A stretch of DNA of 50,731 bases from a phage: the sequence record PZ445412.1; one strand, 5' to 3'. A program made the translations under genes and the position numbers. The first letter of the stretch is position 1; every line of letters starts with the position of its first letter. Below the pieces are notes generated by a model that did not search any database, was not told the origin of the DNA, and worked only from the letters and a program-made list of their open reading frames with translations. Positions 23,217 to 38,019 of this stretch are shown here, one piece after another.

Positions 23217-23230
23217 ATCGGCTTACCTTC

Positions 23231-23578: not shown

Positions 23579-23609
23579 AGAGAAAAGCGCCCCGAAAGGC
23601 GCTTATTTA

Positions 23610-24320: not shown

Positions 24321-24439
24321 AATGAATTCCTCTTTGACATTAAAAAATTAAAAATTTAAGTAACATTTTCGTTACGCGGTGGAGTATGCGCCTTATTGGA
24401 TGGAATAGATATGGAAGGATTGTAAAGAATTGGTAAATA

Positions 24440-24464
24440 AAAAAGGGAGGCGTTGCGCCTCCCG
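24440..24464 (-). terminator. rho-independent terminator after tail fibre gene (minus strand)
   Basis: GGGAGGCG-ttg-CGCCTCCC with a T-run on the minus strand. Confidence 0.65.
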
Positions 24465-24469
24465 TTGTA

Positions 24470-26389
24470 TTATGGTAGTTCTGGAATTGTTGTGGCATTA
24501 CCTCCAGCCAATCCAGCAATCATTTCCTTCAATTGTTCAATATCAGCTTTTAAACTTGAAACTTCACTTTCTAACGCTTCATTTTTACCCTGCAACTCTT
24601 GAACAACAACAATAAGATCAGAAATAACGGCGCGATCATTAACGTTCATGATTTCGAATTCATCACCGTTTTCATCTGTTGCAGTTCCGCCAAAGAAAAC
24701 GTAAGTGTCGTCTATTTCAGCCATTTGTTGCGCAAGGTATCCACGCTGCAAAACATGGTTTCCCTTATAATAAAACTCCATAACACCAATCTGTTTAACG
24801 CGATCCCATGCGCCAGGCTTAGGAGGTTCAAATCTATCCTTAATACGAACATCAGATCCCTGAATAGCGCAGCGCCCCTCAGGTGTATAGAATCCATTAT
24901 CGTTTCGCATCGAGTACCATACGACACTACCGCCAAATGTGTTAAAAGACCAAACATATTGATACTGTTGCCCAGGGACACCTGCAACATAGTTTTGAAC
25001 ACCAAACCACGAGTTTTCAACATATGTAAGAAGGTTTGCGCCATCGCTTGATTGTTGAGATTTTTCTTTAATCAAAGCAGCAGTCCACGGGCCTCCCTGA
25101 CCATAATAAGCCTTAGCCCACACCGCATTAAATGTAACATCCTGATCAATTCCAACCCCTAAATTTCGTCTTGCTTGAGCTACATTATCAGCACCAGTAC
25201 CACCTTGCGCAATACCTAGAGCCGACCAACCTTTTAGATAGCGATTGAACATACCCCATGTTCCATCATTCCTTACAGATATCTCTTTTAAACCATCTGG
25301 AGAAAGCATTGACGTGAAAACAGAATCCTGAATTATTCTATCAACTTGCAAATTTATTTTTGCTTGCGTAACGTTTTCAGCACCAGTGCCGCCAGCGCCA
25401 ATAGAAAGTGCCGATGTGCTGTTGTTGTCATTACGTGCAACTCGCCATTCTCCATTGTTAGCGATCCGCAATTCATAAGTCCATGCAGGATTTCTGAAAG
25501 AGTTGTAAGCGCCAGTATCTTGATCTTTTACAGAATTAACCGCCTCAACTTTCAAAGCTTCCCTTGCAAGGTCTTTGTTTGCAAGATCATTAAGGTTTTG
25601 ATCCTTATGCAGCAGATTTTCAGGTTGCACCTGTTGCGCCCATTGGCGAGCTTCATCACGCGCAGTCTCAGCGCCAGCCTTTGCATTATCAGCACCAACC
25701 TTTGATTGCTCTGCGGCGAATTGTGCGTTTTCCGCTTCATCACGCGCGTCTAACGCTTCATTTTTAATTCCGGTTATCTCAGTAACGGCAGAATCTTTAA
25801 TCTGTTGCGTTTGGTTTTTTATTGCGTCCGTGTCTGCCTTAATCTGATTGGTTTCGGCAACAGCGGCATTCTTAATCTGTTGAGTTTCAGAAACAGCGGT
25901 ATCCTTAATCTGTTGCGTTTCAGTAACAGCAGCATCCTTTATTGTTTGCGTGTAGTTTTTTAATTGTTCCGTCGCGGCTCGGTCTGCATCAGTTTTTTGC
26001 GCGGAAGCCTCAGCGCGAGCAACAAGATCCTGTATTGTTTTTAAATCAAAGTTTTTGAAAAATTCAATCGCTTCCTCAATAACAGTTTCTTTACTTTGGT
26101 AATAGCGCAGCGTTTCCGCAACATCTTGCGCCATTCCATCTACCGTTAAAGAGTCATTCAACAGGATCACATAATTTCCGTTTTCTACTGGCTCGCCGTC
26201 AGTCTGGATCGCTTTCATTTCCGTGTCACTTACAATATCGCTAATCACAGCCAATTTAAGAGGCGATGTGAGAAATACGATTGTTGCGCCAGCGCGGATA
26301 AGAGAAAGAGGCTCACGCCATTTTGTGCCAGTACCAGTAATAACGCCTTGCGCGTCCATTGCAGCCGTACCAGTGCGATATAAAGCCAT
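24470..26389 (-). CDS. side tail fibre with C-terminal chaperone-like domain
   Basis: 639 aa; about 11-aa tandem repeats (TQQIKDTAVSE-like); C-terminal coiled-coil tail; own sigma70-like promoter and terminator. Confidence 0.7.
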   Translation of the reverse strand: MALYRTGTAAMDAQGVITGTGTKWREPLSLIRAGATIVFLTSPLKLAVISDIVSDTEMKAIQTDGEPVENGNYVILLNDSLTVDGMAQDVAETLRYYQSKETVIEEAIEFFKNFDLKTIQDLVARAEASAQKTDADRAATEQLKNYTQTIKDAAVTETQQIKDTAVSETQQIKNAAVAETNQIKADTDAIKNQTQQIKDSAVTEITGIKNEALDARDEAENAQFAAEQSKVGADNAKAGAETARDEARQWAQQVQPENLLHKDQNLNDLANKDLAREALKVEAVNSVKDQDTGAYNSFRNPAWTYELRIANNGEWRVARNDNNSTSALSIGAGGTGAENVTQAKINLQVDRIIQDSVFTSMLSPDGLKEISVRNDGTWGMFNRYLKGWSALGIAQGGTGADNVAQARRNLGVGIDQDVTFNAVWAKAYYGQGGPWTAALIKEKSQQSSDGANLLTYVENSWFGVQNYVAGVPGQQYQYVWSFNTFGGSVVWYSMRNDNGFYTPEGRCAIQGSDVRIKDRFEPPKPGAWDRVKQIGVMEFYYKGNHVLQRGYLAQQMAEIDDTYVFFGGTATDENGDEFEIMNVNDRAVISDLIVVVQELQGKNEALESEVSSLKADIEQLKEMIAGLAGGNATTIPELP

Positions 26390-26419
26390 AATTACACCTC
26401 ATTTTATTCATTGAAACAG

Positions 26420-26455
26420 TGTAGTGATTATGCGATATTGCTATGTTACATGCAA
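26420..26455 (-). promoter_or_regulatory. sigma70-like promoter for tail fibre gene
   Basis: On minus strand TTGCAT, 17-nt spacer, CATAAT; about 30 nt upstream of fibre ATG. Confidence 0.5.
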
Positions 26456-26480
26456 TAAAAAACCCCGCCTTAGCGGGGTT
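26455..26480 (-). terminator. rho-independent terminator after primase gene (minus strand)
   Basis: CCCCGC-taag-GCGGGG followed by TTTTTT on minus strand. Confidence 0.65.
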
Positions 26481-26544
26481 CGTCAACGACAACGAGAAGT
26501 CAATGAAACAGATTCATCGAAAAGTGTTAGTAGCATGATTAATA

Positions 26545-27471
26545 TTATAATAAGTCACTTGCCTTGTAAAGCCTCCGCTCTATTCCATTTTTGAATTTAC
26601 CGTTAACTGGTAACATTACGTCTAATTCGCGATCATCAGCAGCAATCAAAGTATCGCGATCATTAGCATGGCACACAACGCGCATTTTACGATCTCCTTT
26701 GTATCTGTATGCAACAATTTCAAGATTTGAAGGTGAGAAACACGCCCATACTTCTTGCCCCGTCGCCAGGTGTATATGTTGCGCATCAATCCAATCAACG
26801 CAAAGGTAAATTGTTTTGTCAGTCTTGCCAGTTACCGCAACGCTTCCGCGCGTGTAATCTTTCGCGTAAAAACTGCTTTTCCCTTCCTCATTGACGAAAA
26901 GAATATTGCACATATCATCATCCAATTCATCACTATGCACCAGGTGGCAAGGAATAGCGTGTATATGTTCGTCATATCCACCAGGATTGATTTTTACGCC
27001 TACTTGATACGATTCACCGTCTAACGGATAAAACGCCTCAAAAATGCTTAGGTGCGTTGCTGTCATGGTTTCTGTTTTACTCATTACCTCAGCGCATTTT
27101 TCGTGTGGTGATTGCGATCCGAAATTATAACCGGAGTCACGTTTTGCCGCTTTGTTCGCCTTGTTGACAACCTCAACCGGAACCAGGTTTAACCATTCGC
27201 CTAGAGTGTCGATTGCTTCACTGTAATTTTCACCACGTATGCGCATGAATAATCCGATCCCTGAATCATTCCCGCATTGGTTGCAAATGTTGCCGCCGTC
27301 GCCTTTCTCGTTGATTTTGTCAGTCCAACGAAAGCGATCTTTACCGCCGCAATAAGGGCAAGGCTGATGCTTTCCGTTAAAGGTTAATTGAGGAATATCG
27401 CAAAGTTTCATTAATGCCGCTTGCCACATGCCGCGCATCTTTGGGATCACTTCTTCTTTTTGATAATGCAT
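26545..27471 (-). CDS. DNA primase (zinc-binding, P4-alpha-like N-terminal type)
   Basis: CPYCGGKDRFRW...CNQC zinc-finger motif near N-terminus. Confidence 0.55.
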   Translation of the reverse strand: MHYQKEEVIPKMRGMWQAALMKLCDIPQLTFNGKHQPCPYCGGKDRFRWTDKINEKGDGGNICNQCGNDSGIGLFMRIRGENYSEAIDTLGEWLNLVPVEVVNKANKAAKRDSGYNFGSQSPHEKCAEVMSKTETMTATHLSIFEAFYPLDGESYQVGVKINPGGYDEHIHAIPCHLVHSDELDDDMCNILFVNEEGKSSFYAKDYTRGSVAVTGKTDKTIYLCVDWIDAQHIHLATGQEVWACFSPSNLEIVAYRYKGDRKMRVVCHANDRDTLIAADDRELDVMLPVNGKFKNGIERRLYKASDLL

Positions 27472-27484
27472 TTCTCAACCTCCA

Positions 27485-27521
27485 AATAAAAAACCTGGCA
27501 CGATGATAAACCATGCCAGGC
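27485..27521 (-). terminator. hairpin plus T-tract between HTH gene and primase (minus strand)
   Basis: CCTGGCATGG...CGTGCCAGG followed by TTTTTTATTT on minus strand. Confidence 0.5.
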
Positions 27522-27529
27522 CGGAATTT

Positions 27530-28138
27530 TTAGCAATCAGTGCTATCGACGGAAATCACAACGCGTTTCTTCTGATTGGCTTCCTTTGCTTTGCGCCGTT
27601 CTTCTTTCGCCTTTTCGCGTTCAGCTTTGCGCCGCGCTTTCTCCTTCTCGCGTTCTTCTGGACTCATAGACCGCAACGGATCGTAAGGCCGCACAAATCC
27701 TCTTGCTTCCGCTTCCTCTTTGGTTACAAATCGCATCAGCTTTCTGTTGCTGCAACGATTCTCTAATGGCTTGCCGTTATTATCAAATTTGATATCTGGA
27801 CGGCAATATGAAGCGCGGAAGCCGTTAAAACCTTTGCGTCGGTAATCTTTCTGGATCAGTTCAGCGCCTTTAGTTGAAATCATGCCGCGCTCTTTCCATC
27901 CCCATACTGTTTTAAGGTTAACGCCAATTTCACGCGCCAGGGCAGCGCAACCGCCGTAAGCGTTGACAACTTCATCAAGCCGCGCTTTTAATCCGGCTCT
28001 TACTTCTTCCTTTAATACAAGATAACCGCTAACAGGTGCGCGACGTTTACGATCTTTACCACGTCTTACGCCGTTGTTACCATTGATTGTTCGTTTGTCG
28101 ATTTCGCCAGTTGAGGCAGCAATTTTGATTTCGCTCAT
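27530..28138 (-). CDS. HTH DNA-binding protein with basic C-terminal tail
   Basis: HTH-like segment CAALAREIGVNLKTVWGWKERG; Lys/Arg/Glu-rich C-terminus; first gene of leftward unit upstream of primase. Confidence 0.4.
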   Translation of the reverse strand: MSEIKIAASTGEIDKRTINGNNGVRRGKDRKRRAPVSGYLVLKEEVRAGLKARLDEVVNAYGGCAALAREIGVNLKTVWGWKERGMISTKGAELIQKDYRRKGFNGFRASYCRPDIKFDNNGKPLENRCSNRKLMRFVTKEEAEARGFVRPYDPLRSMSPEEREKEKARRKAEREKAKEERRKAKEANQKKRVVISVDSTDC

Positions 28139-28148
28139 ATTTTCACCT

Positions 28149-28170
28149 GTAGCACTTTTTGCTAAAAAAC
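28149..28170 (+). promoter_or_regulatory. conserved 22-bp box upstream of helicase
   Basis: GTAGCACTTTTTGCTAAAAAAC followed by TATGATAT and a small hairpin. Confidence 0.5.
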
Positions 28171-28226
28171 TTGATTAAGTTTGTGTATGATATGCCTCAA
28201 ATGGCATTTAGTCAAAAGGATAAAAA

Positions 28227-30200
28227 ATGATTCCTAACATTGAAAAGCAGATTGCAGATCTTGGAGAGGAAAGAATTAAGGCAATCCAGAAGCGTTTCAC
28301 GGTTGGTGAGATTGTCCCGTATGAATACCAATGCGTTGCTTACGCTGAAATTGCAAAGCGCTTGAGCAAGTATGTCGATCCGTTTTTCGTTAAAGCGGCG
28401 GTATCGGCAGGTAAAACAATAATCTTTGCTATGGTTGCGGCTCAGTGTCGGAAAATGGGATTGAAAGCGTTATTTCTGGCGCGTCAATCTGAAATCGTGG
28501 ATCAGGATTCAAAAGAGATTAGCGCCTTTGGTGTTCCGAATTCCGTTTATTGCGCTGGCCTGAATACCAAAAGCGCTTATTTCCCGATTGTTGTCGGATC
28601 GGAAGGTACTGTAATTGGTGGATTGAATAAAGCGTTAGGTGATTACGTCCCACAGGTTTTAGGTATAGATGAATGTCATCAAGTCAACTGGAATGATATT
28701 GTTGAAGCCGAGGAAAACGGCGAAAGCATAGAGCAAATGATGACGCCGAAAGGTGAACCAGTTGAAGGGCATCCATTGCTGATTGGTTCAGGACGCGCAC
28801 AATACACCATTATCATTGCAGAAATGCGCCGCCGTTGTCTTGAGACTTACGGTCATCAGTTGCGCATATTTGGAATGACCGGATCGGAATATCGCGGAAT
28901 TGAGCCGATACTTGTCGAAGATAAAAGAATTCCTGGGTTTTGGCGTGAGCAGATCACAAACATTGATACTGATTACCTGGTAAAATTTGGTTCAGTTGTT
29001 CCCACATATTTTGGCAATGTTGGTGATTTGGGTTACGACTTATCAGAATTTACGCCAGTGCATGAATTTGGCGTTGCTGATTATGACCAGAAGCAATTAA
29101 AGGCCATGAGTGACAAGATTCACCAATCAGTAACCATGACGCAGAAAATAATGCAGATGGTTCATGAGGTAATGAAAAACCGCTTATGTGCTCTTGTTAC
29201 TTGCGCTGACGAAAGGCACTGCAAAGAGGCGGCGGCGGCGCTTCCGTCTGGCACGAAATATCACATTATTACCGGAAAAACTGGAGAGAAACAGCGGCGC
29301 TTATGGCTTGAGGATGCCTATGAAGGGCGCGTGAAATACATCTTCCAGGTTCAGGCGCTAACAACTGGCGTTAACGTTCCGCCGTGGGATACTTCTGTGA
29401 TTTTGCGTAAGATCGGAAGCCTGACGCTATTAACTCAGCTTTTGGGGCGTGGTATGCGTCAATTAAAAACTTACCATAAAGAAGTATTGGGAATGCACAA
29501 AACGGATCACCTTGTTTTGGATTTTTCCGGCACGATGTTTGAAATGGGTAATTTGTATTTCGATCCTATGTTAGAGCAAGCGCAATTCCAGTTGCGTAAA
29601 TCACAGGATAAAGATCCGAAATATTGCCCGATTTGCGGCACAGAAAATTCATTCTATGCTCGCCGTTGCATTAATGAGGATGAAAACGGAAATCGTTGTG
29701 AACATTTCTGGACGTTCCAGGAGTGTGAGGATCAGATTGATGACCGCACAAAGAAAGTTATTGTAAAAGGTTGCGGCGCAAAAAATGACGTTGCTGCGCG
29801 TGTATGCCGTTGCTGTAATGTTCAGTTACGCGATCCAAATGATAACTTGTCCGGCAAGATGTACCGTAAAAACGATTGGTGCGACGTGTTAGATTTTAAT
29901 GTGACGCTGACAAAAAACCAGGCTGGCGTAATATTCTGCTACACGTTGCGTGATAGTGGCGGCGTAGAATTCAGGGCATACGAAAAATATTTCCCTGAAT
30001 CAGAACACAAGATATGCAAAACGCTTTGGACAAAGGCGGTTAGAACTCACGTTATAGATCGCCAGGCCGCAAACTTTATGATCACTTGCCGCAATGCAAT
30101 TAAGATCATGAGTTATGCGGGGCAAATATTGCCGCCAAAACGTGTTACCCATCGCAAGAACACAAAGAAAGAAGATTTGATCGCACAGAAGGAGTTTTAA
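28227..30200 (+). CDS. superfamily-2 ATP-dependent helicase with C-terminal zinc ribbons
   Basis: Walker A AVSAGKT, DExH box GIDECHQ, C-terminal CPICG...C..C and CG...CRCC pairs. Confidence 0.7.
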   Translation: MIPNIEKQIADLGEERIKAIQKRFTVGEIVPYEYQCVAYAEIAKRLSKYVDPFFVKAAVSAGKTIIFAMVAAQCRKMGLKALFLARQSEIVDQDSKEISAFGVPNSVYCAGLNTKSAYFPIVVGSEGTVIGGLNKALGDYVPQVLGIDECHQVNWNDIVEAEENGESIEQMMTPKGEPVEGHPLLIGSGRAQYTIIIAEMRRRCLETYGHQLRIFGMTGSEYRGIEPILVEDKRIPGFWREQITNIDTDYLVKFGSVVPTYFGNVGDLGYDLSEFTPVHEFGVADYDQKQLKAMSDKIHQSVTMTQKIMQMVHEVMKNRLCALVTCADERHCKEAAAALPSGTKYHIITGKTGEKQRRLWLEDAYEGRVKYIFQVQALTTGVNVPPWDTSVILRKIGSLTLLTQLLGRGMRQLKTYHKEVLGMHKTDHLVLDFSGTMFEMGNLYFDPMLEQAQFQLRKSQDKDPKYCPICGTENSFYARRCINEDENGNRCEHFWTFQECEDQIDDRTKKVIVKGCGAKNDVAARVCRCCNVQLRDPNDNLSGKMYRKNDWCDVLDFNVTLTKNQAGVIFCYTLRDSGGVEFRAYEKYFPESEHKICKTLWTKAVRTHVIDRQAANFMITCRNAIKIMSYAGQILPPKRVTHRKNTKKEDLIAQKEF

Positions 30201-30202
30201 AG

Positions 30203-30610
30203 ATGGTTAATGATAAAGGAGATTATCTGGAGTATTACGACAAATCAGATCCAGATACAAGAAAAGAAGAATCTCACCAGGTTGATTCTTACTCATGGCT
30301 TATATACGAATTCCCCATGTGGCTTGTTTGGCACACTAAAAACGAAGGGAAGAAAACCATTGGCACAGCAGTAAAAGATCAGCAAGCAGGTGTGAAAAAG
30401 GGAGTAAGCGACATTCTAATCCTGACTGGTTTTATTGGCTGCAAATATTCATTCATTGCCATTGAGCTTAAAAAAGCCAACAAGAAAGGCACAAAAGTAA
30501 GCAAGGAACAAAAGGAATTCTTACGTCGCGTTAGGGAATGCGGAGGATTTGCCGCCGTATGCTATGGTGTAGAGCAAGTAAAATTGGCTATCGCAGACGC
30601 TACAAAATAG
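30203..30610 (+). CDS. VRR-NUC domain nuclease
   Basis: GVSDILIL...IAIELKK pattern consistent with the VRR-NUC D...E.K core; follows helicase. Confidence 0.5.
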   Translation: MVNDKGDYLEYYDKSDPDTRKEESHQVDSYSWLIYEFPMWLVWHTKNEGKKTIGTAVKDQQAGVKKGVSDILILTGFIGCKYSFIAIELKKANKKGTKVSKEQKEFLRRVRECGGFAAVCYGVEQVKLAIADATK

Positions 30611-30626
30611 CACTTTTTGTTAAAAC
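30605..30626 (+). promoter_or_regulatory. conserved 22-bp box plus hairpin element
   Basis: AAATAGCACTTTTTGTTAAAAC; hairpin GGCGCA-acggaa-TGCGCC; CATAATGCAC; AGAACGAAACGGAG. Confidence 0.6.
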
Positions 30627-30681
30627 AGGCGCAACGGAATGCGCCATAATGCACCCATCAGAACGAAACGGAGAATTAACC

Positions 30682-30960
30682 ATGAAAAAGATGTTATCAG
30701 TAGTTGCTTTATCACTTGCCCTTGTCGGTTGCATGGATAAACCCAAAACATATATTTGCGGAAATGAAGCGTTTGAGGTTACAAGCGACTATATGAAAGT
30801 TGTGCAAGGCAAAAGCACAGGCGTTGTAATGGATAATATCAGCAAAAATCAATATAAGTTGTTTACGCCAATTGGAACGGCTTATTACACTGTTAACGAT
30901 AGCACCATTGATATTAAAGTTGGCGTTTATCAGCACACTCTAACTTGCGAGGTAAAATAA
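30682..30960 (+). CDS. lipoprotein (candidate Cor-like superinfection exclusion protein)
   Basis: Signal peptide with lipobox LALVGC; start MKKML at 30682 after box/hairpin element. Confidence 0.55.
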   Translation: MKKMLSVVALSLALVGCMDKPKTYICGNEAFEVTSDYMKVVQGKSTGVVMDNISKNQYKLFTPIGTAYYTVNDSTIDIKVGVYQHTLTCEVK

Positions 30961-30961
30961 A

Positions 30962-31699
30962 ATGGCTAAGGATTTTCAGGACAAAGCAACCATTGATACT
31001 TTTGAGCCGGAAATGGATTTTCATGAATTGCAACACGGCAGATATTCAGATATTGCGTTGCGTTCAGGTGGTCATTATCAGCCAGTTAGAGAAAACCCAA
31101 TGTTCAAGGTTAGCGGCAACCGTTACGCCGGAAGTAAGACACCTGATGTTGTGCGTGATTTGTGGGAAACGCCAGATGAAATTGTAGAATATTTGGCTGA
31201 ACGTTACGGCAAATACGATCTTGATGCAGCCGCAAGCGAAAACAACAAGAAATGCGATAAGTTTTACAGCAAGGAAACAAACTGCTTAAAACGTTGGTGG
31301 GGTAGCAATAAGCATGTTTGGCTCAATCCACCATACAGCAATCCAGATCCGTTTGTGTTAAAAGCAATTGAGCAGATGGAACACGGAAACCAGATTGATA
31401 TTTTACTTCCGGCTGACAACTCAACAGCATGGTTTAGCGATGCACAAAAACACGCGGCTGAAATTATCTGGATCACTGGCGAAACATGGGAAGAAGAAGG
31501 AAAACAATATTCCCGCACTGGTCGAGTATCGTTTATTTCTGGAATGACAGGTGAACCAGTTAGCGGAAACAATAAAGGAAGCGTGATTTTTATCATGCGA
31601 CAACTGAAAGAAGGTGAGCAACAACAAACTCATTATGTGCCAATTAGTGAAATTTGCCCTTCTGTTGAGAACAAACGCACAAAAGCGCGGAGTATTTAA
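30962..31699 (+). CDS. dam: DNA N6-adenine methyltransferase (phage Dam type)
   Basis: Catalytic NPPY motif (WLNPPYSNPDP) and upstream DLDAAAS motif. Confidence 0.75.
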   Translation: MAKDFQDKATIDTFEPEMDFHELQHGRYSDIALRSGGHYQPVRENPMFKVSGNRYAGSKTPDVVRDLWETPDEIVEYLAERYGKYDLDAAASENNKKCDKFYSKETNCLKRWWGSNKHVWLNPPYSNPDPFVLKAIEQMEHGNQIDILLPADNSTAWFSDAQKHAAEIIWITGETWEEEGKQYSRTGRVSFISGMTGEPVSGNNKGSVIFIMRQLKEGEQQQTHYVPISEICPSVENKRTKARSI

Positions 31700-31701
31700 A
31701 G

Positions 31702-31968
31702 ATGGAAAAGATTGAAACTATTGTTGAAAATGGCGTTGAATATCGACGCGTTGAATTAACTGAACGTGGTTTATGGTTGCTTTATCGCGCTATGGTTTGC
31801 GAAGCTATAGAGAAAGCGAAAGAAACTGAAACAGTAGGATCTGATTTGTGGATGTTCACAGGTGCGCTTGATATGAGCTTTGATGAAACAAAAGAGCTTG
31901 TATTGAGCAAGTGGGAAGAAAAGATAAATCAAGATCTCAAAGAATTTTTAGCAGATCCGAATAAATAG
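31702..31968 (+). CDS. hypothetical acidic protein
   Basis: 88 aa, Glu/Asp-rich; stop codon embedded in box element. Confidence 0.4.
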   Translation: MEKIETIVENGVEYRRVELTERGLWLLYRAMVCEAIEKAKETETVGSDLWMFTGALDMSFDETKELVLSKWEEKINQDLKEFLADPNK

Positions 31969-31985
31969 CACTTTTTGTTAAAAAT
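31963..31985 (+). promoter_or_regulatory. conserved 22-bp box plus hairpin element
   Basis: Box then hairpin TGCCCC-gcgaaagt-GGGGCA, ATAATCA, TCAACGAAAC. Confidence 0.6.
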
Positions 31986-32038
31986 GCCCCGCGAAAGTGG
32001 GGCATAATCATTTCAACGAAACACGATAGGGCTTTAAG

Positions 32039-32203
32039 ATGGAAATCAAAAACATTGAATACTTCAAAGATGCGCAATGGCTGGCAAGAGAGGCAATTTT
32101 CTTGCGTGATCGAAAAAATCCTATTGTTGTGTCACAGATACTTTGGAATGACGCTATGAAACTTCTTAAAAAGGCTTACGGTCATGAAAATAATGAGGGG
32201 TAA
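32039..32203 (+). CDS. hypothetical small protein
   Basis: 54-aa ORF after box/hairpin/TCAACGAAAC leader; not in the 60-aa ORF track. Confidence 0.35.
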   Translation: MEIKNIEYFKDAQWLAREAIFLRDRKNPIVVSQILWNDAMKLLKKAYGHENNEG

Positions 32204-32426
32204 AAAAGAAACATGGGATTTAGCTAAAAAAGGCGGTCTTGATGAAGGGATCGCAAAAATAGCGCAATATTTCGATATTAAAGACGTGTGCGTTATTGTC
32301 GGTGATGAAATGGCATATGTGGATGAAAAGCCGCGCAAGGTTCATCGCGTTCCGGCAATTCCGACAACAATTGACTATAAAGAAGTGATCAACAAAACCA
32401 AAGAGCAAAGGAAATATTACAAGTGA
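32184..32426 (+). CDS. hypothetical protein
   Basis: 80-aa ORF overlapping upstream gene end. Confidence 0.35.
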   Translation: MKIMRGKKETWDLAKKGGLDEGIAKIAQYFDIKDVCVIVGDEMAYVDEKPRKVHRVPAIPTTIDYKEVINKTKEQRKYYK

Positions 32427-32519
32427 AAACAATTAAATTCATGTTTGCTGTTGCCTTGCCGCCAATGCTGGCATGGTTTATGATGTATGCCGTTGTTATG
32501 AAATAAGAGGATTTGTGAA

Positions 32520-33635
32520 ATGAGTGCGGCAAAAATTACGGACGAACAACTTATTGCAGAAAGGGCGGCAGGTTTAAAACTGCGTGAGATTGCGGAAAAA
32601 TACGGAATGAGCTTGCGCCAGGTTGAGCACCGACACAGCAAATTGGCTAAACGTGGGGAAATATCAACAATCGGATCGCCTGGCTTTGCTGTAATTGGTG
32701 AATCACAGCTTAAACGTGCAAATGGTGAGGTTGTAATGACCTGGACTAAAACGCACAAAGACAAAGCACAATTAGAGGCAATCATGCAAGCGGCTATGGC
32801 TGCATTTTCGGAAGAAGTGCCGCGCGTCGAACCGCAACCGGAAAAGATTGTTGACTACTCGCAAACGCTGGCGTTATATCCGATCTTTGATATCCATATT
32901 GGCGCAATGGCTCATAAGCATGAAAGCGGTGAGAATTACGACACGGCAACGGCGGAAAACGTCATGAATGAGTTTTTCGATTATGCAGTTGATAAAGCGC
33001 CGAATAGCGAAAAGGCTGTATTGCTGATTGGTGGTGATATGATTCACAGTGACGGTCTGGAGGCTGTAACACCTGCAAGCGGTCACGTTTTGGATCAAGA
33101 TAGCCGTTACGCAAAACTTGTTTATGTTGCTATCCGCGCCACGCGTCGAGCAGTAAGCAGAATGCTGGAAAAACATAAAGAGGTTGAATTGCAGATCATT
33201 GAAGGTAATCACGACCAATCAGGAATGATCTGGCTACGTGCTGCAATGGCGGCGGCGTATGAGAATGAGCCACGCGTAAAGGTTGATGTTTCTCCGCGTG
33301 TCGTGCATCACACTCAATATGGTAAAACATTCCTGGCTTATCATCATGGTCACACTGTACGCAAACCAGAAACGCTTTTAATGATGTGTGCAGCGGATTG
33401 GCGGGAAGATTTCGGAAACTCCAATTCAATGTATGCTCATGTAGGGCATTGGCATCATCAGACCGTCACAGAAACTAGCCTGGGCATTGTTGAGGTTCAT
33501 AGCACTATGGCGGCTAAAGATGCTTATGCGGCGCGTGGAGGTTGGCGTTCACGCCGTCGAGCGGCGGTAATTATCTATGATAAGGAATATGGCGAGATAG
33601 GGCGCTTCATGTTCTACCCTGAAATGATTGCATAA
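32520..33635 (+). CDS. metallophosphoesterase with N-terminal HTH-like domain
   Basis: Calcineurin-like motifs GDMIHSD, EGNHDQ, HHGH, GHWHH; N-terminal LKLREIAEKYGMSLRQV HTH-like. Confidence 0.55.
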   Translation: MSAAKITDEQLIAERAAGLKLREIAEKYGMSLRQVEHRHSKLAKRGEISTIGSPGFAVIGESQLKRANGEVVMTWTKTHKDKAQLEAIMQAAMAAFSEEVPRVEPQPEKIVDYSQTLALYPIFDIHIGAMAHKHESGENYDTATAENVMNEFFDYAVDKAPNSEKAVLLIGGDMIHSDGLEAVTPASGHVLDQDSRYAKLVYVAIRATRRAVSRMLEKHKEVELQIIEGNHDQSGMIWLRAAMAAAYENEPRVKVDVSPRVVHHTQYGKTFLAYHHGHTVRKPETLLMMCAADWREDFGNSNSMYAHVGHWHHQTVTETSLGIVEVHSTMAAKDAYAARGGWRSRRRAAVIIYDKEYGEIGRFMFYPEMIA

Positions 33636-33746
33636 TTAAATTATCACCTAAAAAGGCTGGCTAAATGCTGGCCTTTTTTTGTTTTTGTCGTTAACATAAT
33701 CAGACTATTTTTGATATTGACTTTTTAATTTTTAAAGGATCTGGTT

Positions 33747-33962
33747 ATGCGTGAATTTATTAACTTTGCAACTTATTCAAGCGGTGGCGCTACCTTCTCA
33801 GGCGCTGCAAGTGGTCAATTACTGTTGGCGGCTCTAACATTCATATTCTTTGTTATTTTCGGCGCTATTGGCTTGTGGTTAAGGTGGCGTGACAGCAAGG
33901 CGATCCGAGAAGCGTTAGAGTGTGGAGATCTTAAAACCGCTCTTAAAATTAACCAAAAATAG
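33747..33962 (+). CDS. holin (possible pinholin)
   Basis: 71 aa, hydrophobic TM segment LLLAALTFIFFVIFGAIGLWL, charged C-terminus; directly upstream of endolysin. Confidence 0.55.
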   Translation: MREFINFATYSSGGATFSGAASGQLLLAALTFIFFVIFGAIGLWLRWRDSKAIREALECGDLKTALKINQK

Positions 33963-33974
33963 GGAGTGAATTTA

Positions 33975-34469
33975 ATGGCTATTAAAAAGACAATAGCCGC
34001 TACCATAACGGGCGCGGCTCTAATGATGGCATCGCCCTTGATTGAAGAAATTGAGGGCGTGAGGTATAAGCCTTACAAGGATATTGCAGGAATCTGGACT
34101 GTATGCCACGGCATCACCGGAAAGGATGTGATATTAGGAAAGGAATATACCAGGCGAGAATGTGACGCGCTACTTGCAAAGCATATGAAAGTTGCGGCTG
34201 ACGCTGTTGATAAAGCGGTTAAGGTTGATATTCCTATTTCTATGCGAGCGGCCTTGTACTCATTCACATTCAACGCCGGAACGGGGGCATTCAGGAAATC
34301 AACCATGTTGAAGAAGATCAACAATGGTGATCTGTATGGTGGTTGTGGCGAGCTTTGGAACTGGACATATTACCGGAACCCGAAAACGGGCAAAAAGGAA
34401 AAATCAAAGGGATTGAAGAATCGCCGCGCTGTTGAATATAAATATTGTGTAATGGATCTGAATAAATGA
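33975..34469 (+). CDS. endolysin, lysozyme type with putative SAR N-terminus
   Basis: [23 protein letters not shown] closely matches the catalytic region of P21-type SAR lysozymes; Gly/Ala-rich weak TM at N-terminus. Confidence 0.75.
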
Positions 34470-34855
34470 AAAGAAAATTACTGGCTATTATGATGTGCAT
34501 TGCTCTTTCTGGTTGTTCAGCTTCAAGCGTGTTACCTGGTCTGATTGGTAGCAAGCCTGATATAACGGCACAGGCTGGAGCGGAGAATGTGAAACAGACT
34601 GTTGGTGTAACCGCAAAGCAGGATACATCAAGCAAGCAGAAAACCACATTCAAAGAATCGGCAGTTGGCGAGGTTGACACGTCTAATAAAAAGCAGGTGA
34701 GCACTTCAAGCATTAAGGCAGAAAACATCACAGCGGAAAGAATAGAGATCCGCAATAATGATGGTCTTAATGTTCCGGCAATCGCAATGGGTATATTGAT
34801 GTTTATTGCGGGTATGTTGGCGGGTTGGTCACTGAAACGAAATAAGGCGGCATAA
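34466..34855 (+). CDS. unimolecular spanin (u-spanin)
   Basis: Lipobox LSGC at N-terminus plus C-terminal TM helix; last gene of lysis cassette. Confidence 0.65.
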
Positions 34856-34871
34856 GCCGCCTTTATTATTA
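34841..34871. terminator. bidirectional terminator between lysis cassette and leftward operon
   Basis: GGCGGC-ataa-GCCGCC flanked by A-run and T-run. Confidence 0.6.
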
Positions 34872-35093
34872 AAAAATGTTGTTCATTAAGTCTTGGAAAG
34901 TATTTTCGCTATAATCCCTTTCCTCAATAATGTGAGCACCTTTCTTTTTTATGTTCCACAACATTTCTTCATATTCACTTCTGTTGATCCCAAAAGTTCT
35001 ACCATCATCAACAAAAGCAGTACCTTTATCGTTGAATGTATCAAATGTGACGTTAACAACGCGAGTGGTTTTGATAGTATATTTCAGAGTCAT
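34869..35093 (-). CDS. hypothetical protein
   Basis: 74 aa; preceded by box, hairpin and TCGAAACGAAAC leader; last gene of leftward operon. Confidence 0.45.
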   Translation of the reverse strand: MTLKYTIKTTRVVNVTFDTFNDKGTAFVDDGRTFGINRSEYEEMLWNIKKKGAHIIEERDYSENTFQDLMNNIF

Positions 35094-35152
35094 GGTTATT
35101 CCCCTTTGTTCGTTTCGTTTCGATGAAACAAATATACCCGATGCGAGATCGG

Positions 35153-35176
35153 GTTTTTTGACAAAAAGTGCTATTC
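35153..35176 (-). promoter_or_regulatory. conserved box plus hairpin element (minus orientation)
   Basis: Reverse complement GAATAGCACTTTTTGTCAAAAAAC; hairpin CCCGAT-ctcgc-ATCGGG; TATATT; TCGAAACGAAACGAAC. Confidence 0.6.
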
Positions 35177-35368
35177 AAAGCGTCTGACGTGAATCAGCAA
35201 TTCACCATCATTGTTTGTCAGTTGGTGCTCTTGATCCTCAAACGCTCGCATATCTGAATACAGGAGAAGCATTAAGGCATAAACAAAATCATCATGCGGA
35301 ATTTGCATTGCTGAACTTTCTTTCAAAATAAGATCTATCAAATGTTGGCTTGCTGAATAATTCTTCAT
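35171..35368 (-). CDS. hypothetical small protein (start uncertain; may begin at 35308)
   Basis: Stop codon TAG is embedded in box 35153-35176 as for other real genes; overlaps 35292-35684 in another frame. Confidence 0.3.
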   Translation of the reverse strand: MKNYSASQHLIDLILKESSAMQIPHDDFVYALMLLLYSDMRAFEDQEHQLTNNDGELLIHVRRFE

Positions 35369-35684
35369 CGCTCATTTTCTCAATGTTCATCATCTCCCAC
35401 ACATAACGATTGGAATCACCTTCCAGGCTATGCAACTCAAAATTAAACGGCCTTTTCATCTTGTTTTTGCACCAGTACACGCAATGAACGCCGTCAAGAT
35501 ATCCATAACCCATCATTCGCGCTATAAACTCTTTGCTTGAGCTTGATGCGAAATAGCGGGGCGTTACCCCCGCATTTTTGGCGAGCCTTTCACATTCACG
35601 GTGTCGGAATATAAATCTTGCTAACTCTTGGCGGTTGAATTTCTCGCGAGACTCGCAAAAGCGATACAGATCTAATAAGAACAT
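35292..35684 (-). CDS. hypothetical protein
   Basis: 130-aa ORF immediately downstream of the 526-aa gene. Confidence 0.45.
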   Translation of the reverse strand: MFLLDLYRFCESREKFNRQELARFIFRHRECERLAKNAGVTPRYFASSSSKEFIARMMGYGYLDGVHCVYWCKNKMKRPFNFELHSLEGDSNRYVWEMMNIEKMSDEELFSKPTFDRSYFERKFSNANSA

Positions 35685-35686
35685 GA

Positions 35687-37267: not shown

Positions 37268-37318
37268 CTAAAAATCTCCTTCTTGTTGCCGCTAATTATA
37301 ACGGCAACATTCTACAGC

Positions 37319-37340
37319 CTTTTAGCAATTCGTGCTATTT
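37319..37340 (-). promoter_or_regulatory. conserved box (GAATTG type) plus hairpin element
   Basis: Reverse complement AAATAGCACGAATTGCTAAAAG; hairpin TGTTGCCG-ttataatta-CGGCAACA with TATAAT in the loop. Confidence 0.6.
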
Positions 37341-37583
37341 GATCGGCTCAACCCTGGCTAATAACTTTCCATCTATAATGCTATGACATTCAAGAGTTTT
37401 AGGATCGAATGCAAGCGAACGATGGAACGTATGACCAATCAGAAAATATGAATGCTTATCCCTGATGCGATAGACCGTTTCACCTTCCTTTAATGAAGAT
37501 ATCTCACTGAAAACAACCTTGTAACGGTATTTTTGCATGGCCTCAGAACGGTGAGGAATGTAATCTTTTTCCGGTAAACTCAT
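37335..37583 (-). CDS. hypothetical protein
   Basis: 82-aa ORF, start overlapping upstream gene stop. Confidence 0.4.
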   Translation of the reverse strand: MSLPEKDYIPHRSEAMQKYRYKVVFSEISSLKEGETVYRIRDKHSYFLIGHTFHRSLAFDPKTLECHSIIDGKLLARVEPIK

Positions 37584-37942: not shown

Positions 37943-37997
37943 TTGATTTATCTCCTTTTGTTTCGACGAGTGCATTATGCCGGATTCTAGATCCGGC

Positions 37998-38019
37998 GTT
38001 TTAACAAAAAGTGCTATTT
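37998..38019 (-). promoter_or_regulatory. conserved 22-bp box plus hairpin element
   Basis: Reverse complement AAATAGCACTTTTTGTTAAAAC; hairpin GCCGGAT-ctaga-ATCCGGC; CATAATGCAC; TCGAAAC. Confidence 0.6.

What the first reader, a model, noticed from the sequence alone, without database searches (positions are those of the whole stretch)
30646..30681. Conserved 5'-leader boxes (TCGAAACGAAAC and CAACCAATCAGGAG) between hairpin and start codon
Many genes downstream of the box share one of two leader motifs immediately before the RBS: TCGAAACGAA(A)C (seen at 30664, 31995-32025, 35110-35128 reverse, 37955-37965 reverse, 39995-40010 reverse, 41590-41600 reverse, 43458-43470) or (CGCATC)AACCAATCAG(G)AG (20973-20990, 40725-40745 reverse, 42285-42300, 44250-44268, 46512-46526). 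CCAATCAG also occurs inside the 41629 and 44200 elements. These could be translational enhancers, RNA-binding-protein sites or processing sites that coordinate expression of otherwise unrelated small genes.
Basis: seen in the sequence. Interest (0 to 1): 0.5.

Follow-up and report, generated by a model that had tools for sequence, protein, structure and literature searches.

The report
Shared promoter-leader cassette plus genome-wide 9-mer
The two "leader boxes" are the first transcribed bases of a promoter-like unit repeated about 18 times in this T1-like phage, and the CCAATCAG part of the second box is a separate 9-base DNA word that occurs 30 times on both strands, mostly inside genes, with no known function.

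Summary
The window is the whole genome of Escherichia phage DanielBernoulli (Bas08, Drexlerviridae, Tlsvirus).

Box 1 (ATCGAAACGAAAC) is real. It is one conserved part of an ~80-bp cassette with 18 complete copies here, laid out as:
- the published 21-nt repeat aaATAGCACnnnTTGnTAAAA, which contains a dyad TAGCA-N5-TGCTA
- a fixed 22-nt spacer that is usually a hairpin
- a TAnnnT hexamer with G two bases upstream
- a C-rich stretch
- the box, then a Shine-Dalgarno site and ATG

The box starts exactly 6 nt after the hexamer but 18-34 nt before the ATG. So it marks the predicted transcript 5' end, not the ribosome-binding site. Its leaders are short (~25 nt), A-rich and unusually unstructured.

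Box 2 is composite. CATCAACCAA is a variant of the same leader. CCAATCAG belongs to a different element, the 9-mer MCCARTCAG:
- 30 copies against 0.8 expected, on both strands and mostly in coding sequence
- used in every stop-free reading frame and maintained by synonymous codon choice
- evenly spaced, with close neighbours almost always in one inverted orientation
- enriched in all Drexlerviridae loci fetched, at background level in outgroup phages

The upstream repeat is already published (function unknown). I found no report of the promoter reading, the leader anchoring or the 9-mer. Transcription starts and the 9-mer's reader are inferred or unknown.

The parts
30605..30625 (+). 21-nt Drexlerviridae repeat AAATAGCACTTTTTGTTAAAA. 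It holds the dyad half-sites TAGCA (30608-30612) and TGTTA (30618-30622), at predicted -52 to -32 with the centre near -42.
   Evidence: Sequence. The consensus was published for TLS (PMC11447400). Logo of 56 cassettes from four subfamilies, 1.3-1.8 bit per position.
30628..30645 (+). Hairpin GGCGCA-ACGGAA-TGCGCC inside the promoter spacer. Its last base is the first base of the -10-like hexamer.
   Evidence: Covariation in 38 distinct orthologous cassettes: 72.9% of cells paired against 55.5% in shuffles (0/500). Covariation score 0.50 against 0.25, and 0.09-0.16 when partners are slid. 6 of 7 pairs have changes on both sides.
30645..30650 (+). -10-like hexamer CATAAT. The second-position A and last-position T are invariant in relatives.
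   Evidence: A and T are invariant in alignment A3, which was selected only on the upstream box. 466 of 532 distinct cassettes have xAnnnT at this fixed distance, and the base two positions upstream is G in 80%.
30657..30669 (+). Leader box 1 copy of the finding, ATCAGAACGAAAC. Predicted transcript 5' end (+1 = A 30657), preceded by the discriminator GCACCC (30651-30656).
   Evidence: C(-1) and A(+1) are at least 90% conserved in A3. The box is anchored 6 nt after the hexamer in 138/162 cassettes. The start site itself is inferred, not measured.
30670..30684 (+). Shine-Dalgarno GGAG (30670-30673), spacer, and ATG (30682) of bas08_0036. This is a 92-aa protein with a lipoprotein-like signal (MKKMLSVVALSLALVGC).
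   Evidence: PHROG 7420 and a weak Cor-like match.
20917..20998 (+). Cassette with leader ATCAACCAACGAGAGAGAGG, a box 2-like variant without CCAATCAG.
27469..27548 (-). Cassette upstream of the primase gene. Its leader lacks the box.
28147..28229 (+). Cassette upstream of the helicase gene. Its box lies inside the leader of the divergent regulator gene bas08_0033.
31963..32041 (+). Cassette with leader AACGAAACACG.
35091..35176 (-). Cassette with leader ATCGAAACGAAACGAAC. Its hairpin is also scored as terminator-like on both strands.
37265..37340 (-). Cassette upstream of the DUF3987 helicase gene. Its leader lacks the box.
37940..38019 (-). Cassette with leader GTCGAAACAAAAGGAG.
39263..39342 (-). 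Cassette with the 9-mer antisense in its spacer, abutting the hexamer (CTGATTGG-TATCAT).
39988..40068 (-). Cassette with leader ATCGAAACGAACCGGAG.
40711..40789 (-). Cassette with leader ATCAACCAATCAGGAG. This is box 2: the leader variant plus the 9-mer abutting the Shine-Dalgarno site.
41571..41650 (-). Cassette with leader ATCGAAACGAATTGAGG and the 9-mer in sense orientation directly after the box.
43406..43485 (+). Cassette with consensus leader ATCGAAACGAAACGAGG. The 9-mer lies antisense directly upstream of the box (43397-43405).
43812..43892 (+). Cassette with leader ATACCAAACAAATAGAGG.
44199..44279 (+). Cassette with leader ATCAACCAACCAAAGGAG. The 9-mer lies antisense in the spacer (CTGATTGG-TATAAT).
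45375..45456 (+). Cassette of the type whose hairpin arms flank the hexamer (TAAAGT).
46450..46538 (+). Cassette with a 34-nt leader that ends in ACCAATCAG-AGG.
47794..47874 (+). Cassette with leader ATTGAAGCGAAACAGAGG.
770..49215 (.). 30 copies of the DNA word MCCARTCAG. Start positions: 770-, 3134-, 7361-, 7821+, 11011-, 12404-, 16289-, 16490+, 18594+, 20169-, 20881-, 24012-, 24225+, 25844-, 28779-, 29122+, 30422-, 33024-, 33214+, 34541-, 36908-, 37434+, 39302+, 40725-, 41622-, 42285+, 43397-, 44231-, 46516+, 49207-.
   Evidence: 30 against 0.81 expected, with no shuffle of 100 reaching 30. 22 copies lie in CDS against 2.4+/-1.5 after synonymous-codon shuffling (0/500). Frames. Spacing and pair geometry.
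42240..42268 (+). Canonical sigma-70-like promoter TTGACA-17-TAACAT of the rightward early genes. Its leader ends in ACCAATCAGGAGG.
28187..28215 (-). Canonical sigma-70-like promoter TTGACT-17-TATCAT upstream of bas08_0033.
27530..28138 (-). bas08_0033, a Cro/YdaS-like helix-turn-helix protein. It is the candidate binder of the dyad in the 21-nt repeat (inferred only).
   Evidence: Pfam YdaS_toxin HTH, E=2e-5 and below the curated cut-off. PHROG 2856 'transcriptional regulator'. The single-sequence structure model was unusable, pLDDT 46.6.

Best explanation
The leader boxes are the start site and first ~13 transcribed bases of a promoter-leader cassette that drives many early or middle genes of T1-like phages.

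Cassette layout, 5' to 3':
- the stop codon of the upstream gene
- the 21-nt repeat, whose dyad TAGCA-N5-TGCTA is centred near -42
- a 22-nt spacer, usually a GC-rich hairpin
- an extended -10 (TGn-TAnnnT) with no -35 at normal spacing
- a C-rich discriminator
- A(+1)TCGAAACGAAAC, then a Shine-Dalgarno site ~8 nt before the ATG

Inferred mechanism: host sigma-70 RNA polymerase starts at the conserved C-A step. A dimeric phage helix-turn-helix protein bound at about -42, the usual position of class II activators, probably switches these promoters on or off together; bas08_0033 is the candidate. The conserved initial sequence sets the start site. It also yields a uniform ~25-nt, A-rich, U-poor, unstructured 5' UTR that leaves the ribosome-binding site open, so unrelated small genes are expressed alike.

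Box 2 is not a second leader family. CATCAACCAA is a variant of the same A/C-rich leader. CCAATCAG is a copy of a separate genome-wide DNA word that has been fitted into a free slot of the cassette, sharing its last bases with the Shine-Dalgarno site.

Shown: the architecture, its conservation, the anchoring of the box, the hairpin covariation and the low predicted structure. Inferred: promoter activity, the start site and the regulator.
For: - Copy number: 18 complete cassettes with constant spacing, all pointing at a downstream gene.
- Logo of 56 cassettes from DanielBernoulli, T1, Rtp and KP36: the box is strong at -51 to -31, the spacer is unconserved (~0.1 bit) and +1 to +8 carries 0.4-0.8 bit. 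G at -14 is 80% although the search did not impose it; the hexamer's A and T were imposed by the search in that set.
- In 38 distinct orthologous cassettes chosen only by the box, A(-11) and T(-7) are invariant while the other hexamer positions vary. C(-1) and A(+1) are at least 90% conserved.
- 466 of 532 distinct cassettes have the hexamer at the fixed distance. ATCGAAAC starts 6 nt after it in 138/162, but 18-34 nt before the ATG.
- Leaders are mostly 24-26 nt, 50% A and 14% U. MFE of -28 to +30 is -3.4 against -7.1 kcal/mol for the other genes (P=7e-6).
- The same cassette precedes different genes in different relatives. 7 of 28 DanielBernoulli/TLS homology breakpoints fall in cassettes, against 5.8% expected (P=0.001).
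- Few canonical sigma-70-like promoters exist: 26 matches against 45 in shuffles here, and three intergenic ones reported for TLS. One lies in front of the HTH gene bas08_0033.
- For box 2.
Against: - No transcription start has been mapped in any T1-like phage that I could find, so +1 is a prediction.
- The consensus promoter scan does not call the cassettes, because no -35 lies at 16-18 nt.
- The spacer hairpin covaries. That implies a function as folded nucleic acid, for example a terminator or 3'-end hairpin for upstream transcripts. It leaves open that the whole unit acts in read-through RNA.
- T1 and KP36 records annotate these hairpins as terminators.
- Leader conservation is only moderate, and 6-7 of the 18 cassettes lack a recognisable box.
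- The link to bas08_0033 rests on a sub-threshold Pfam match and gene position only. The structure model failed.
Confidence: 0.62

Rival explanations
1. RNA-processing or terminator module. The unit acts in polycistronic read-through RNA. The hairpin would be a terminator or a protective 3' hairpin for the upstream message. The AU-rich stretch plus CAUCGAAAC would be an endonuclease site (RNase E- or RNase III-like) that creates the 5' end of the next message, as at T7 early RNase III sites.
For: The hairpin covaries in a register-specific way. The hairpins are annotated as rho-independent terminators in T1 and KP36, and some score as terminator-like here. The conserved box directly follows the hairpin and AU stretch.
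Against: Most copies lack a U-tract after the hairpin; at 30646 it is followed by AUAAUGCACCC. The invariant A and T at hexamer positions 2 and 6, G two bases upstream in 80%, and a conserved C-A step 6-7 nt downstream are the signature of an extended -10 promoter. An RNA site does not predict them. Cassettes without any hairpin keep the hexamer and the box, for example 41650- and 28147+. The two readings are not exclusive.
Confidence: 0.15
2. One reading: the boxes are specific translational enhancers or binding sites for an RNA-binding protein, placed before the ribosome-binding site to co-regulate translation.
For: The leaders are conserved in relatives regardless of the downstream gene. 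They are A-rich and the start regions are unusually unstructured. 43 of 203 distinct 9-mer sites abut a Shine-Dalgarno site in sense orientation, at a fixed distance from the ATG.
Against: Box 1 is fixed relative to the hexamer, not to the Shine-Dalgarno site or ATG. Its information content is low (0.4-0.8 bit per position), and the variants share composition more than sequence. The core of box 2 is mostly in coding DNA, on both strands. No Rfam family matches.
Confidence: 0.1
3. No function of its own: the leader similarity is only shared descent of duplicated cassettes, or gene conversion between them.
For: Cassettes are mosaic junctions and so are exposed to recombination. Box conservation is moderate.
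Against: The spacer between two conserved blocks has diverged completely (~0.1 bit) while +1 to +8 is retained in four subfamilies whose proteins are only 55-70% identical. The C-A step is at least 90% conserved.
Confidence: 0.1
4. For the CCAATCAG core only: MCCARTCAG is a polar signal read on DNA by a tracking enzyme. It could be a start site for the phage primase, or a Chi-like stop or switch signal for a helicase-nuclease. A plain binding site for a monomeric DNA-binding protein is the alternative.
For: The word is under selection at the DNA level. It is family-specific. Spacing is more even than random, especially within one orientation: CV 0.48 in DanielBernoulli (P=4e-4) and CV 0.30 in KP36 (no random placement of 20,000 as even). 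Close neighbours almost always have one inverted orientation. Canonical Chi is not enriched. The two bases after the word avoid T.
Against: No reader has been identified. The orientation bias (about 2:1) is not universal; T1 has 11:14. The word does not coincide with recombination breakpoints. Pair interiors are not AT-rich. Known primases of this type recognise 3-5 nt (my own knowledge). The E. coli RecBCD signal is GCTGGTGG, not this word.
Confidence: 0.45

Closest known systems
21-nt intergenic direct repeat of phage TLS, aaATAGCACnnnTTGnTAAAA (PMC11447400, 2024)
   Same: It is the upstream block of the same cassette. [quoted passage not shown] The paper also notes the repeat in T1, Rtp and Rogue1. 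DanielBernoulli has 18 complete copies and one partial copy.
   Different: The paper leaves the function open (stoperator, enhancer site or UP element) and lists it as an unanswered question. Its text does not mention the fixed-distance hexamer, the dyad, the leader or CCAATCAG: a text search finds 0 occurrences of 'leader' and 'CCAATCAG'.
Extended -10 and class II activator-dependent sigma-70 promoters, e.g. lambda PRM with cI at -42 or CRP/FNR sites at -41.5 (my own knowledge)
   Same: TAnnnT with G at -14, no usable -35, and a dyad-symmetric site centred near -42.
   Different: No start site, activator or RNA polymerase dependence has been measured. A covarying hairpin fills the spacer, which is unusual for such promoters.
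PeSL (promoter-early stem-loop) cassettes of T4-type phages, Arbiol et al. 2010 (recalled from memory, not checked here)
   Same: A repeated early promoter plus stem-loop flanks small genes and marks the boundaries of swapped gene modules. Here the same cassette precedes different genes in relatives, and homology breakpoints fall in cassettes.
   Different: There is no sequence similarity. Here the stem-loop lies inside the promoter spacer, and a conserved upstream dyad and conserved leader are added.
Start-associated sequences (SAS) of Cluster K mycobacteriophages, Pope et al. 2011 (recalled from memory)
   Same: A short conserved word lies just upstream of many start codons of unrelated genes. 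The leader class of the 9-mer (AACCAATCAGGAG-N5-8-ATG; 43 of 203 distinct sites) looks similar.
   Different: Box 1 is anchored to the promoter, not to the start codon. About 80% of 9-mer copies are not in leaders, and they lie on both strands.
Chi sites and DNA uptake sequences (USS/DUS), and stoperators of mycobacteriophage L5
   Same: All are short asymmetric words, over-represented 10-fold or more, spread through coding DNA of a genome and specific to a lineage. USS are also evenly spaced and occur in both orientations (my own knowledge). Stoperators number ~25-35 per 50-kb phage genome (cited).
   Different: The word is not the E. coli Chi sequence, which is at background level here. Stoperators keep one orientation relative to transcription and are mostly intergenic; this word does neither. 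A virulent phage has no uptake machinery. I know of no description of the divergent-pair geometry for any of these.

Membership tests
Sigma-70 extended -10 promoter | -10 hexamer TAnnnT with A at position 2 and T at position 6 | tested here: met
   Both are invariant in 38 distinct orthologous cassettes selected only on the upstream box. 466/532 distinct cassettes have the hexamer at the fixed distance.
Sigma-70 extended -10 promoter | TG motif at -15/-14 | tested here: met
   G at -14 in 80% and T at -15 in 43-46% of cassettes, not imposed by the search pattern.
Sigma-70 extended -10 promoter | Primary transcript 5' end about 7 nt downstream of the hexamer | not testable with these tools
   Only the conserved C(-1)A(+1) step is seen. 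No mapped start sites were found in the literature held.
Class II activator-dependent promoter | Dyad-symmetric protein site centred near -41.5 that replaces the -35 element | tested here: met
   TAGCA at -49 to -45 and TG(C/T)TA at -39 to -35, centre about -42, relative to the predicted +1. No TTGACA-like hexamer lies at 16-18 nt. The position depends on the inferred +1.
Class II activator-dependent promoter | An identified activator that binds the site and is needed for transcription | not testable with these tools
   bas08_0033 is only a candidate. The structure model was unusable.
UP element | A/T-rich -40 to -60 region matching the UP consensus, with no need for G/C positions | tested here: inconclusive
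   The position and the TTTTT/TAAAA runs fit. However, the best-conserved bases are G and C of TAGCAC, and they form a dyad.
Intrinsic (rho-independent) terminator | GC-rich hairpin | tested here: met
   Hairpin with covariation.
Intrinsic (rho-independent) terminator | U-rich tract directly after the hairpin on the sense strand | tested here: not met
   At the finding the tail is ATAATGCACCC. Of the cassette hairpins, the scan calls only the one at 35136-35154 in the sense direction; the hairpin at 30628-30645 is called only on the opposite strand. T1-type copies (TTATTATCT) come closer.
PeSL-like mobile regulatory cassette | Repeated promoter plus stem-loop at the boundaries of exchanged gene modules | tested here: met
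   Different genes follow the orthologous cassette. 7/28 homology breakpoints lie in cassettes, P=0.001. This is a functional analogy only; there is no sequence relationship.
Start-associated sequence / translational leader motif | Fixed distance to the start codon, sense strand only, confined to leaders | tested here: not met
   Box 1 is anchored to the hexamer. The core of box 2 is 73% in coding DNA, on both strands.
Chi site (RecBCD) | Sequence GCTGGTGG, over-represented and co-oriented | tested here: not met
   0 copies in the window and 0-3 per Drexlerviridae genome. The E. coli sample has 14 per 50 kb, and some outgroup phages have 7-8 co-oriented copies.
Stoperator (L5-type) | One orientation relative to transcription, mainly intergenic | tested here: not met
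   12 sense against 18 antisense or other, and 22 of 30 inside genes.
Any Rfam RNA family | Match at the gathering score | tested here: not met
   0 matches in the whole window.

The most novel reading that the evidence does not exclude
MCCARTCAG would be a previously undescribed 'self word' of T1-like phages: a polar DNA signal kept at about one copy per 2 kb by selection on synonymous sites. Close copies lie in divergent pairs 50-800 bp apart. A DNA-tracking machine would read it. One candidate is the phage primase, making the word a defined Okazaki or leading-strand start site. The other is a phage- or host-encoded helicase-nuclease that degrades DNA lacking the word. The second option would explain how these phages destroy host DNA yet spare their own, which the TLS paper lists as an open question.
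Probability: 0.4. Interest if true: 0.8.

Novelty: new variant of a known kind. Interest (0 to 1): 0.55.

Why it matters
**The cassette.** The 2024 TLS paper lists the function of the 21-nt repeat as an open question for T1-like phages, and reports only three recognisable host-type promoters. Reading the repeat as the operator of ~18 activator-type extended -10 promoters with a common start site and leader gives a concrete regulatory model: a few canonical early promoters, one regulator and many dependent promoters. It can be tested directly in a BASEL-collection phage on E. coli K-12. The cassette would also be a compact, portable expression unit, and it marks where these phages swap genes.

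**The 9-mer.** If the word is read by a replication or nuclease machine, it would be a new example of sequence-based self-marking in a virulent phage. It would also matter for recoding or engineering these genomes.

Tried and rejected
- **Consensus promoter/terminator scan.** It does not call the cassettes, and finds fewer sigma-70-like sites than in shuffles.
- **Rfam.** No match in the window.
- **Literature.** String and keyword searches for the box, the 9-mer and Drexlerviridae start sites gave nothing relevant, except the TLS paper. The Rtp genome paper is not held.
- **Codon usage or a peptide motif as the cause of the 9-mer.** Rejected: all five stop-free frames are used, and synonymous shuffling gives 2.4 against 22.
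- **A host-driven word.** Rejected: E. coli phage JL1 has 1 against 1.05 expected, Chi-rich outgroup phages have 0-1 per 20 kb, and the E. coli sample has 4 per 50 kb.
- **Chi.** Rejected.
- **IHF site (WATCAR-N4-TTR, consensus from my own knowledge).** No TTR downstream in the logo.
- **Replication-linked orientation switch.** GC skew follows transcription only, and the minus-orientation bias is the same on both sides of the AT-rich non-coding region (site list).
- **Origin-like AT-rich pair interiors.** Not seen.
- **9-mer as a recombination junction.** 0/28 breakpoints.
A 48%-identical homologue in JL1 is not accompanied by the word. This is not decisive.
- **Structure of bas08_0033.** The single-sequence model failed (pLDDT 46.6), so no fold search was run.
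- **Y-box/CspA resemblance (CTGATTGG).** This is only a recalled similarity and was not pursued.
Full report
**Identity of the window**

The window is the complete 50,731-bp genome of Escherichia phage DanielBernoulli (Bas08, MZ501059.1; Drexlerviridae, Tempevirinae, Tlsvirus). It is rotated so that window coordinate equals record coordinate minus 536. The finding (30646-30681) is the stretch between the VRR-NUC gene and bas08_0036. It reads ATAATGCACCCATCAGAACGAAACGGAGAATTAACC, followed by the ATG at 30682.

**Check of the observation**

Box 1:
- TCGAAACGAAAC occurs exactly at 35112-35123(-) and 43459-43470(+), and with one mismatch at 40004-40015(-). That is 3 matches against 0.37 expected.
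- Looser copies lie at all the other cited places.
- The 10-mer core alone is not above chance (7 against 5.7), so the signal is positional.

Box 2:
- AACCAATCAGGAG is exact at two places, and 5 copies with at most one mismatch are found against 0.04 expected.
- Two cited places (20973, 44250) carry CATCAACCAAC without CCAATCAG.

**What box 1 belongs to**

All copies lie in a longer repeated unit. DanielBernoulli has 18 complete copies and one partial copy (15605). Each points at a downstream gene.

At the finding, the unit reads:

| Part | Window coordinates |
|---|---|
| 21-nt repeat AAATAGCACTTTTTGTTAAAA | 30605-30625 |
| hairpin GGCGCA-ACGGAA-TGCGCC | 30628-30645 |
| hexamer CATAAT | 30645-30650 |
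| GCACCC | 30651-30656 |
| ATCAGAACGAAAC | 30657-30669 |
| GGAG | 30670-30673 |
| ATG | 30682 |

The 21-nt repeat is already published for TLS (aaATAGCACnnnTTGnTAAAA; 21 copies, 18 intergenic, ~76 nt upstream of start codons; also in T1, Rtp and Rogue1). Its function is stated as unknown and listed as an open question. The authors found only three sigma-70-like intergenic promoters (PMC11447400). That paper mentions neither the leader nor CCAATCAG.

**Anatomy across the family**

A logo of 56 cassettes from DanielBernoulli, T1, Rtp and KP36 (four subfamilies or genera) shows:
- a strong block at -51 to -31
- an unconserved spacer (~0.1 bit per position)
- G at -14 in 80%
- a TAtaaT hexamer (its A and T were part of the search pattern in this set)
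- C-rich -4 to -1
- A at +1 (79%), and ATCGAAAC at +1 to +8 with 0.4-0.8 bit per position

Within the repeat, TAGCA (-49 to -45) and TG(C/T)TA (-39 to -35) form a 5-N5-5 dyad centred near -42.

I then took the cassette at one orthologous position, after the VRR-NUC gene, in helicase-anchored loci from IMG/VR. 73 of 79 loci have it, giving 63 distinct sequences. In an ungapped alignment of 38 distinct sequences selected only by the box:
- the A and T at hexamer positions 2 and 6 are invariant, while the other hexamer positions vary (CATAAT, TATTAT, TATCAT, TATAGT, TAATAT, TAGTAT and others)
- C(-1) and A(+1) are at least 90% conserved

Over all 532 distinct cassettes in the fetched Drexlerviridae loci, 466 have xAnnnT at the fixed distance. 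The preceding G is present in 80%.

This is the signature of an extended -10 sigma-70 promoter without a -35, carrying a dyad operator at the class II activator position. The promoter, +1 and the regulator are inferences, because I found no mapped transcription starts.

A consensus scan finds only a few canonical promoters. One is TTGACA-17-TAACAT at 42240-42268. Another is TTGACT-17-TATCAT at 28215-28187(-). The second lies in front of bas08_0033, a Cro/YdaS-like HTH protein. The helicase cassette's box lies within that gene's own leader. This is the layout expected for an early regulator that controls the cassettes and itself.

**The hairpin**

In the 38 orthologous cassettes, the seven predicted pairs are formed in 72.9% of cells against 55.5% in shuffles (0/500). 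The covariation score is 0.50 against 0.25, and 0.09-0.16 when partners are slid. Six of the seven pairs change on both sides. The hairpin is therefore selected as a structure.

Most copies lack a sense-strand U-tract, although T1-type copies come closer and database records call them terminators. I read it as a weak terminator or 3' hairpin for upstream transcripts, embedded in the next promoter. This leaves an RNA-processing reading of the whole unit as the main rival.

**Is the leader box a promoter element or an RBS element?**

ATCGAAAC (at most one mismatch) starts exactly 6 nt after the hexamer in 138 of 162 distinct cassettes. Its distance to the ATG ranges from 18 to 34 nt. It is therefore tied to the predicted start site.

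In DanielBernoulli the 17 annotated genes with a cassette in their upstream 100 nt differ from the other 72 genes:

| Measure | 17 cassette genes | 72 other genes |
|---|---|---|
| Predicted leader length | 21-34 nt, mostly 24-26 | not applicable |
| Base composition (leader; -28 to -1 for other genes) | A 50%, U 14% | A 34%, U 28% |
| Predicted folding energy, -28 to +30 | -3.4 kcal/mol | -7.1 kcal/mol (P=7e-6) |

The variants (ATCGAAACGAAAC, ATCAACCAAC, ATACCAAAC, ACACAAAC) share the A(+1) start and an A/C-rich, U-poor composition more than an exact word. The most economical reading has two parts. The leader sets the start site and initial transcribed sequence. It also gives a uniform, open 5' UTR.

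The same cassette precedes different genes in different relatives. In addition, 7 of 28 DanielBernoulli/TLS homology breakpoints fall in cassettes, against 5.8% expected (P=0.001). So the cassettes also act as junctions for gene exchange.

**Box 2 and the 9-mer**

CCAATCAG occurs 26 times against 1.6 expected. An unbiased k-mer scan ranks it first; the second-ranked family of words is the 21-nt repeat. One-mismatch analysis in five genomes defines the word as (A/C)CCA(A/G)TCAG:

| Genome | Copies of MCCARTCAG |
|---|---|
| DanielBernoulli | 30 (against 0.81 expected) |
| TLS | 27 |
| T1 | 25 |
| KP36 | 20 |
| Rtp | 14 |

(Counts.) The two bases after the word avoid T, but no other flank is conserved.

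Evidence that the word is selected at the DNA level:
- 22 of the 30 copies are inside genes, sense and antisense, in all five reading frames that carry no stop codon.
- Shuffling synonymous codons within genes gives 2.4+/-1.5 copies against 22 observed (0/500).
- At the TerL site the Pro codon is CCT in all 37 relatives retrieved, while neighbouring wobble positions vary.
- At sites shared between subfamilies, differences are confined to the word's two degenerate positions, even when the amino acid changes (Leu-Thr-Gly to Leu-Ile-Gly). Many other sites are lineage-specific, so sites turn over while their number is kept.

Evidence that the word is family-specific:
- Density is 4.2-4.4 per 10 kb in the Drexlerviridae loci fetched, and 0.40 per 10 kb in the outgroup loci with more distant terminases.
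- A 50-kb E. coli sample has 4 copies.
- E. coli phage JL1 has 1 against 1.05 expected.

The word is therefore a family-specific DNA-level element, not an RNA leader motif.

**Why the 9-mer appears in leaders**

Inside cassettes it occupies only four slots, each in one orientation:
- sense, abutting the Shine-Dalgarno site (CAG-GAG)
- sense, directly after TAAAA of the box
- antisense, abutting the hexamer (CTGATTGG-TATAAT, which supplies the TG)
- antisense, directly upstream of the box

About 21% of distinct sites (43/203) are of the Shine-Dalgarno-abutting type. In this genome 8 of 30 copies lie in the ~8% of DNA that is non-coding. This looks like a required word being fitted wherever it costs least. 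That is an inference.

**Geometry of the 9-mer**

Spacing is more even than random placement:
- all sites: P=0.009 in DanielBernoulli, 0.04 in T1, 0.01 in KP36, not significant in Rtp
- one orientation alone: CV 0.48 in DanielBernoulli (P=4e-4), and CV 0.30 in KP36, where no random placement of 20,000 was as even

Neighbouring sites 800 bp apart or less are almost always a '-' site followed by a '+' site (top strand CTGAYTGGK ... MCCARTCAG):

| Genome | '-+' pairs among close neighbours | Label-permutation P |
|---|---|---|
| DanielBernoulli | 7 of 8 | 1e-4 |
| TLS | 5 of 6 | 2e-3 |
| T1 | 3 of 4 | 0.03 |
| KP36 | 5 of 5 | 2e-4 |
| Rtp | 2 of 2 | 0.07 |

 Over all loci, 41 of 84 distinct '-+' neighbours are this close. 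The figures for the other types are 6/110 '+-', 6/161 '--' and 5/34 '++'. The pairs lie in different genes in different subfamilies.

Further observations:
- Pair interiors are not AT-rich.
- The sites do not coincide with homology breakpoints.
- Canonical Chi is at background level.
- The orientation bias is about 2:1 in most lineages but not in T1.

The candidates considered were the Zn-ribbon primase, the DEAD/ResIII-type helicase plus VRR-NUC pair, and the winged-HTH exonuclease bas08_0041. None is supported by specific evidence. A polar signal for a tracking enzyme (a primase start site, or a Chi-like signal) fits the spacing and orientation rules best, but this is speculation.

**Verdict**

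Box 1 is the start-proximal part of a conserved promoter-leader cassette whose upstream repeat is already published. Box 2 is that leader with an unrelated genome-wide word embedded in it.

The promoter model (confidence about 0.6) turns a stated open question into direct experiments. The 9-mer is the more surprising result and remains unexplained.

Noticed in passing
window 41650-42240: A ~600-bp non-coding region lies between the divergent early gene blocks. It contains the direct repeats GACCGATTGGTCTA / GACCGTTTGGTCTA (41660-41687), a run of GATTTGA-like repeats (41770-41812) and a very AT-rich stretch of TATATATCTAT-like repeats (41975-42125). It is flanked by a divergent 9-mer pair (41622-, 42285+) and is a candidate origin or packaging region.
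   Followed up: no
window 30682-30960: bas08_0036, the gene behind the finding's leader, starts MKKMLSVVALSLALVGC, a lipoprotein-type signal. It has a weak PHROG match to Cor superinfection-exclusion proteins. At the same position, relatives carry other genes.
   Followed up: partly
window 32520-33635: bas08_0041 is annotated 'hypothetical' in the record. It combines an N-terminal winged HTH (IscR-like, residues ~14-74) with the phrog_704 'DNA repair exonuclease' body. Full-length homologues occur in Dhillonvirus and in other non-Drexlerviridae phages of Salmonella, Klebsiella and Yersinia.
   Followed up: partly
L051 and L052 (IMG/VR contigs, TerL ~48% identical): Two related outgroup phages each have their own over-represented 8-mer on both strands: CGTGGCGG (18 in 20 kb) and TGTGGCRG (27 in 21.5 kb). 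The first base is switched at homologous positions. Lineage-specific words may be common in this wider group of siphophages.
   Followed up: partly
L068, L072, L084: These outgroup phage loci carry 7-8 canonical Chi sites in ~20 kb, nearly all on the terminase-coding strand. Drexlerviridae, with 0-3 Chi sites per genome, contrast with this.
   Followed up: no
L176 (Escherichia phage JL1) 3380-39851: GCAACCAAT has 14 exact copies against 0.5 expected. Many lie in gaps between annotated genes, several as close pairs 11-35 bp apart. It shares ACCAAT with the Drexlerviridae word but behaves like an operator or promoter repeat.
   Followed up: partly
window 15603-15628: A partial copy of the 21-nt repeat (ATAGCACAAAAGGTTAAAAG) lies directly before the ATG of the J-like tail-tip gene, with no hexamer or leader. 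T1 has the same arrangement at 25021.
   Followed up: no
L091 77-300: A tandem array of 11 copies of a 21-bp unit (TTTGAGTTTCCTGTGGAGGAG) lies at the end of an outgroup contig.
   Followed up: no
window 30610-30622 and other T-type boxes: The box reads GCAC-TTTTT-GTT. That is the complement of the EcoKI site AAC(N6)GTGC with a 5-nt instead of a 6-nt gap, so it is one base away from being a K-12 restriction site in every copy. This was read directly from the sequence; the EcoKI site is from my own knowledge.
   Followed up: no
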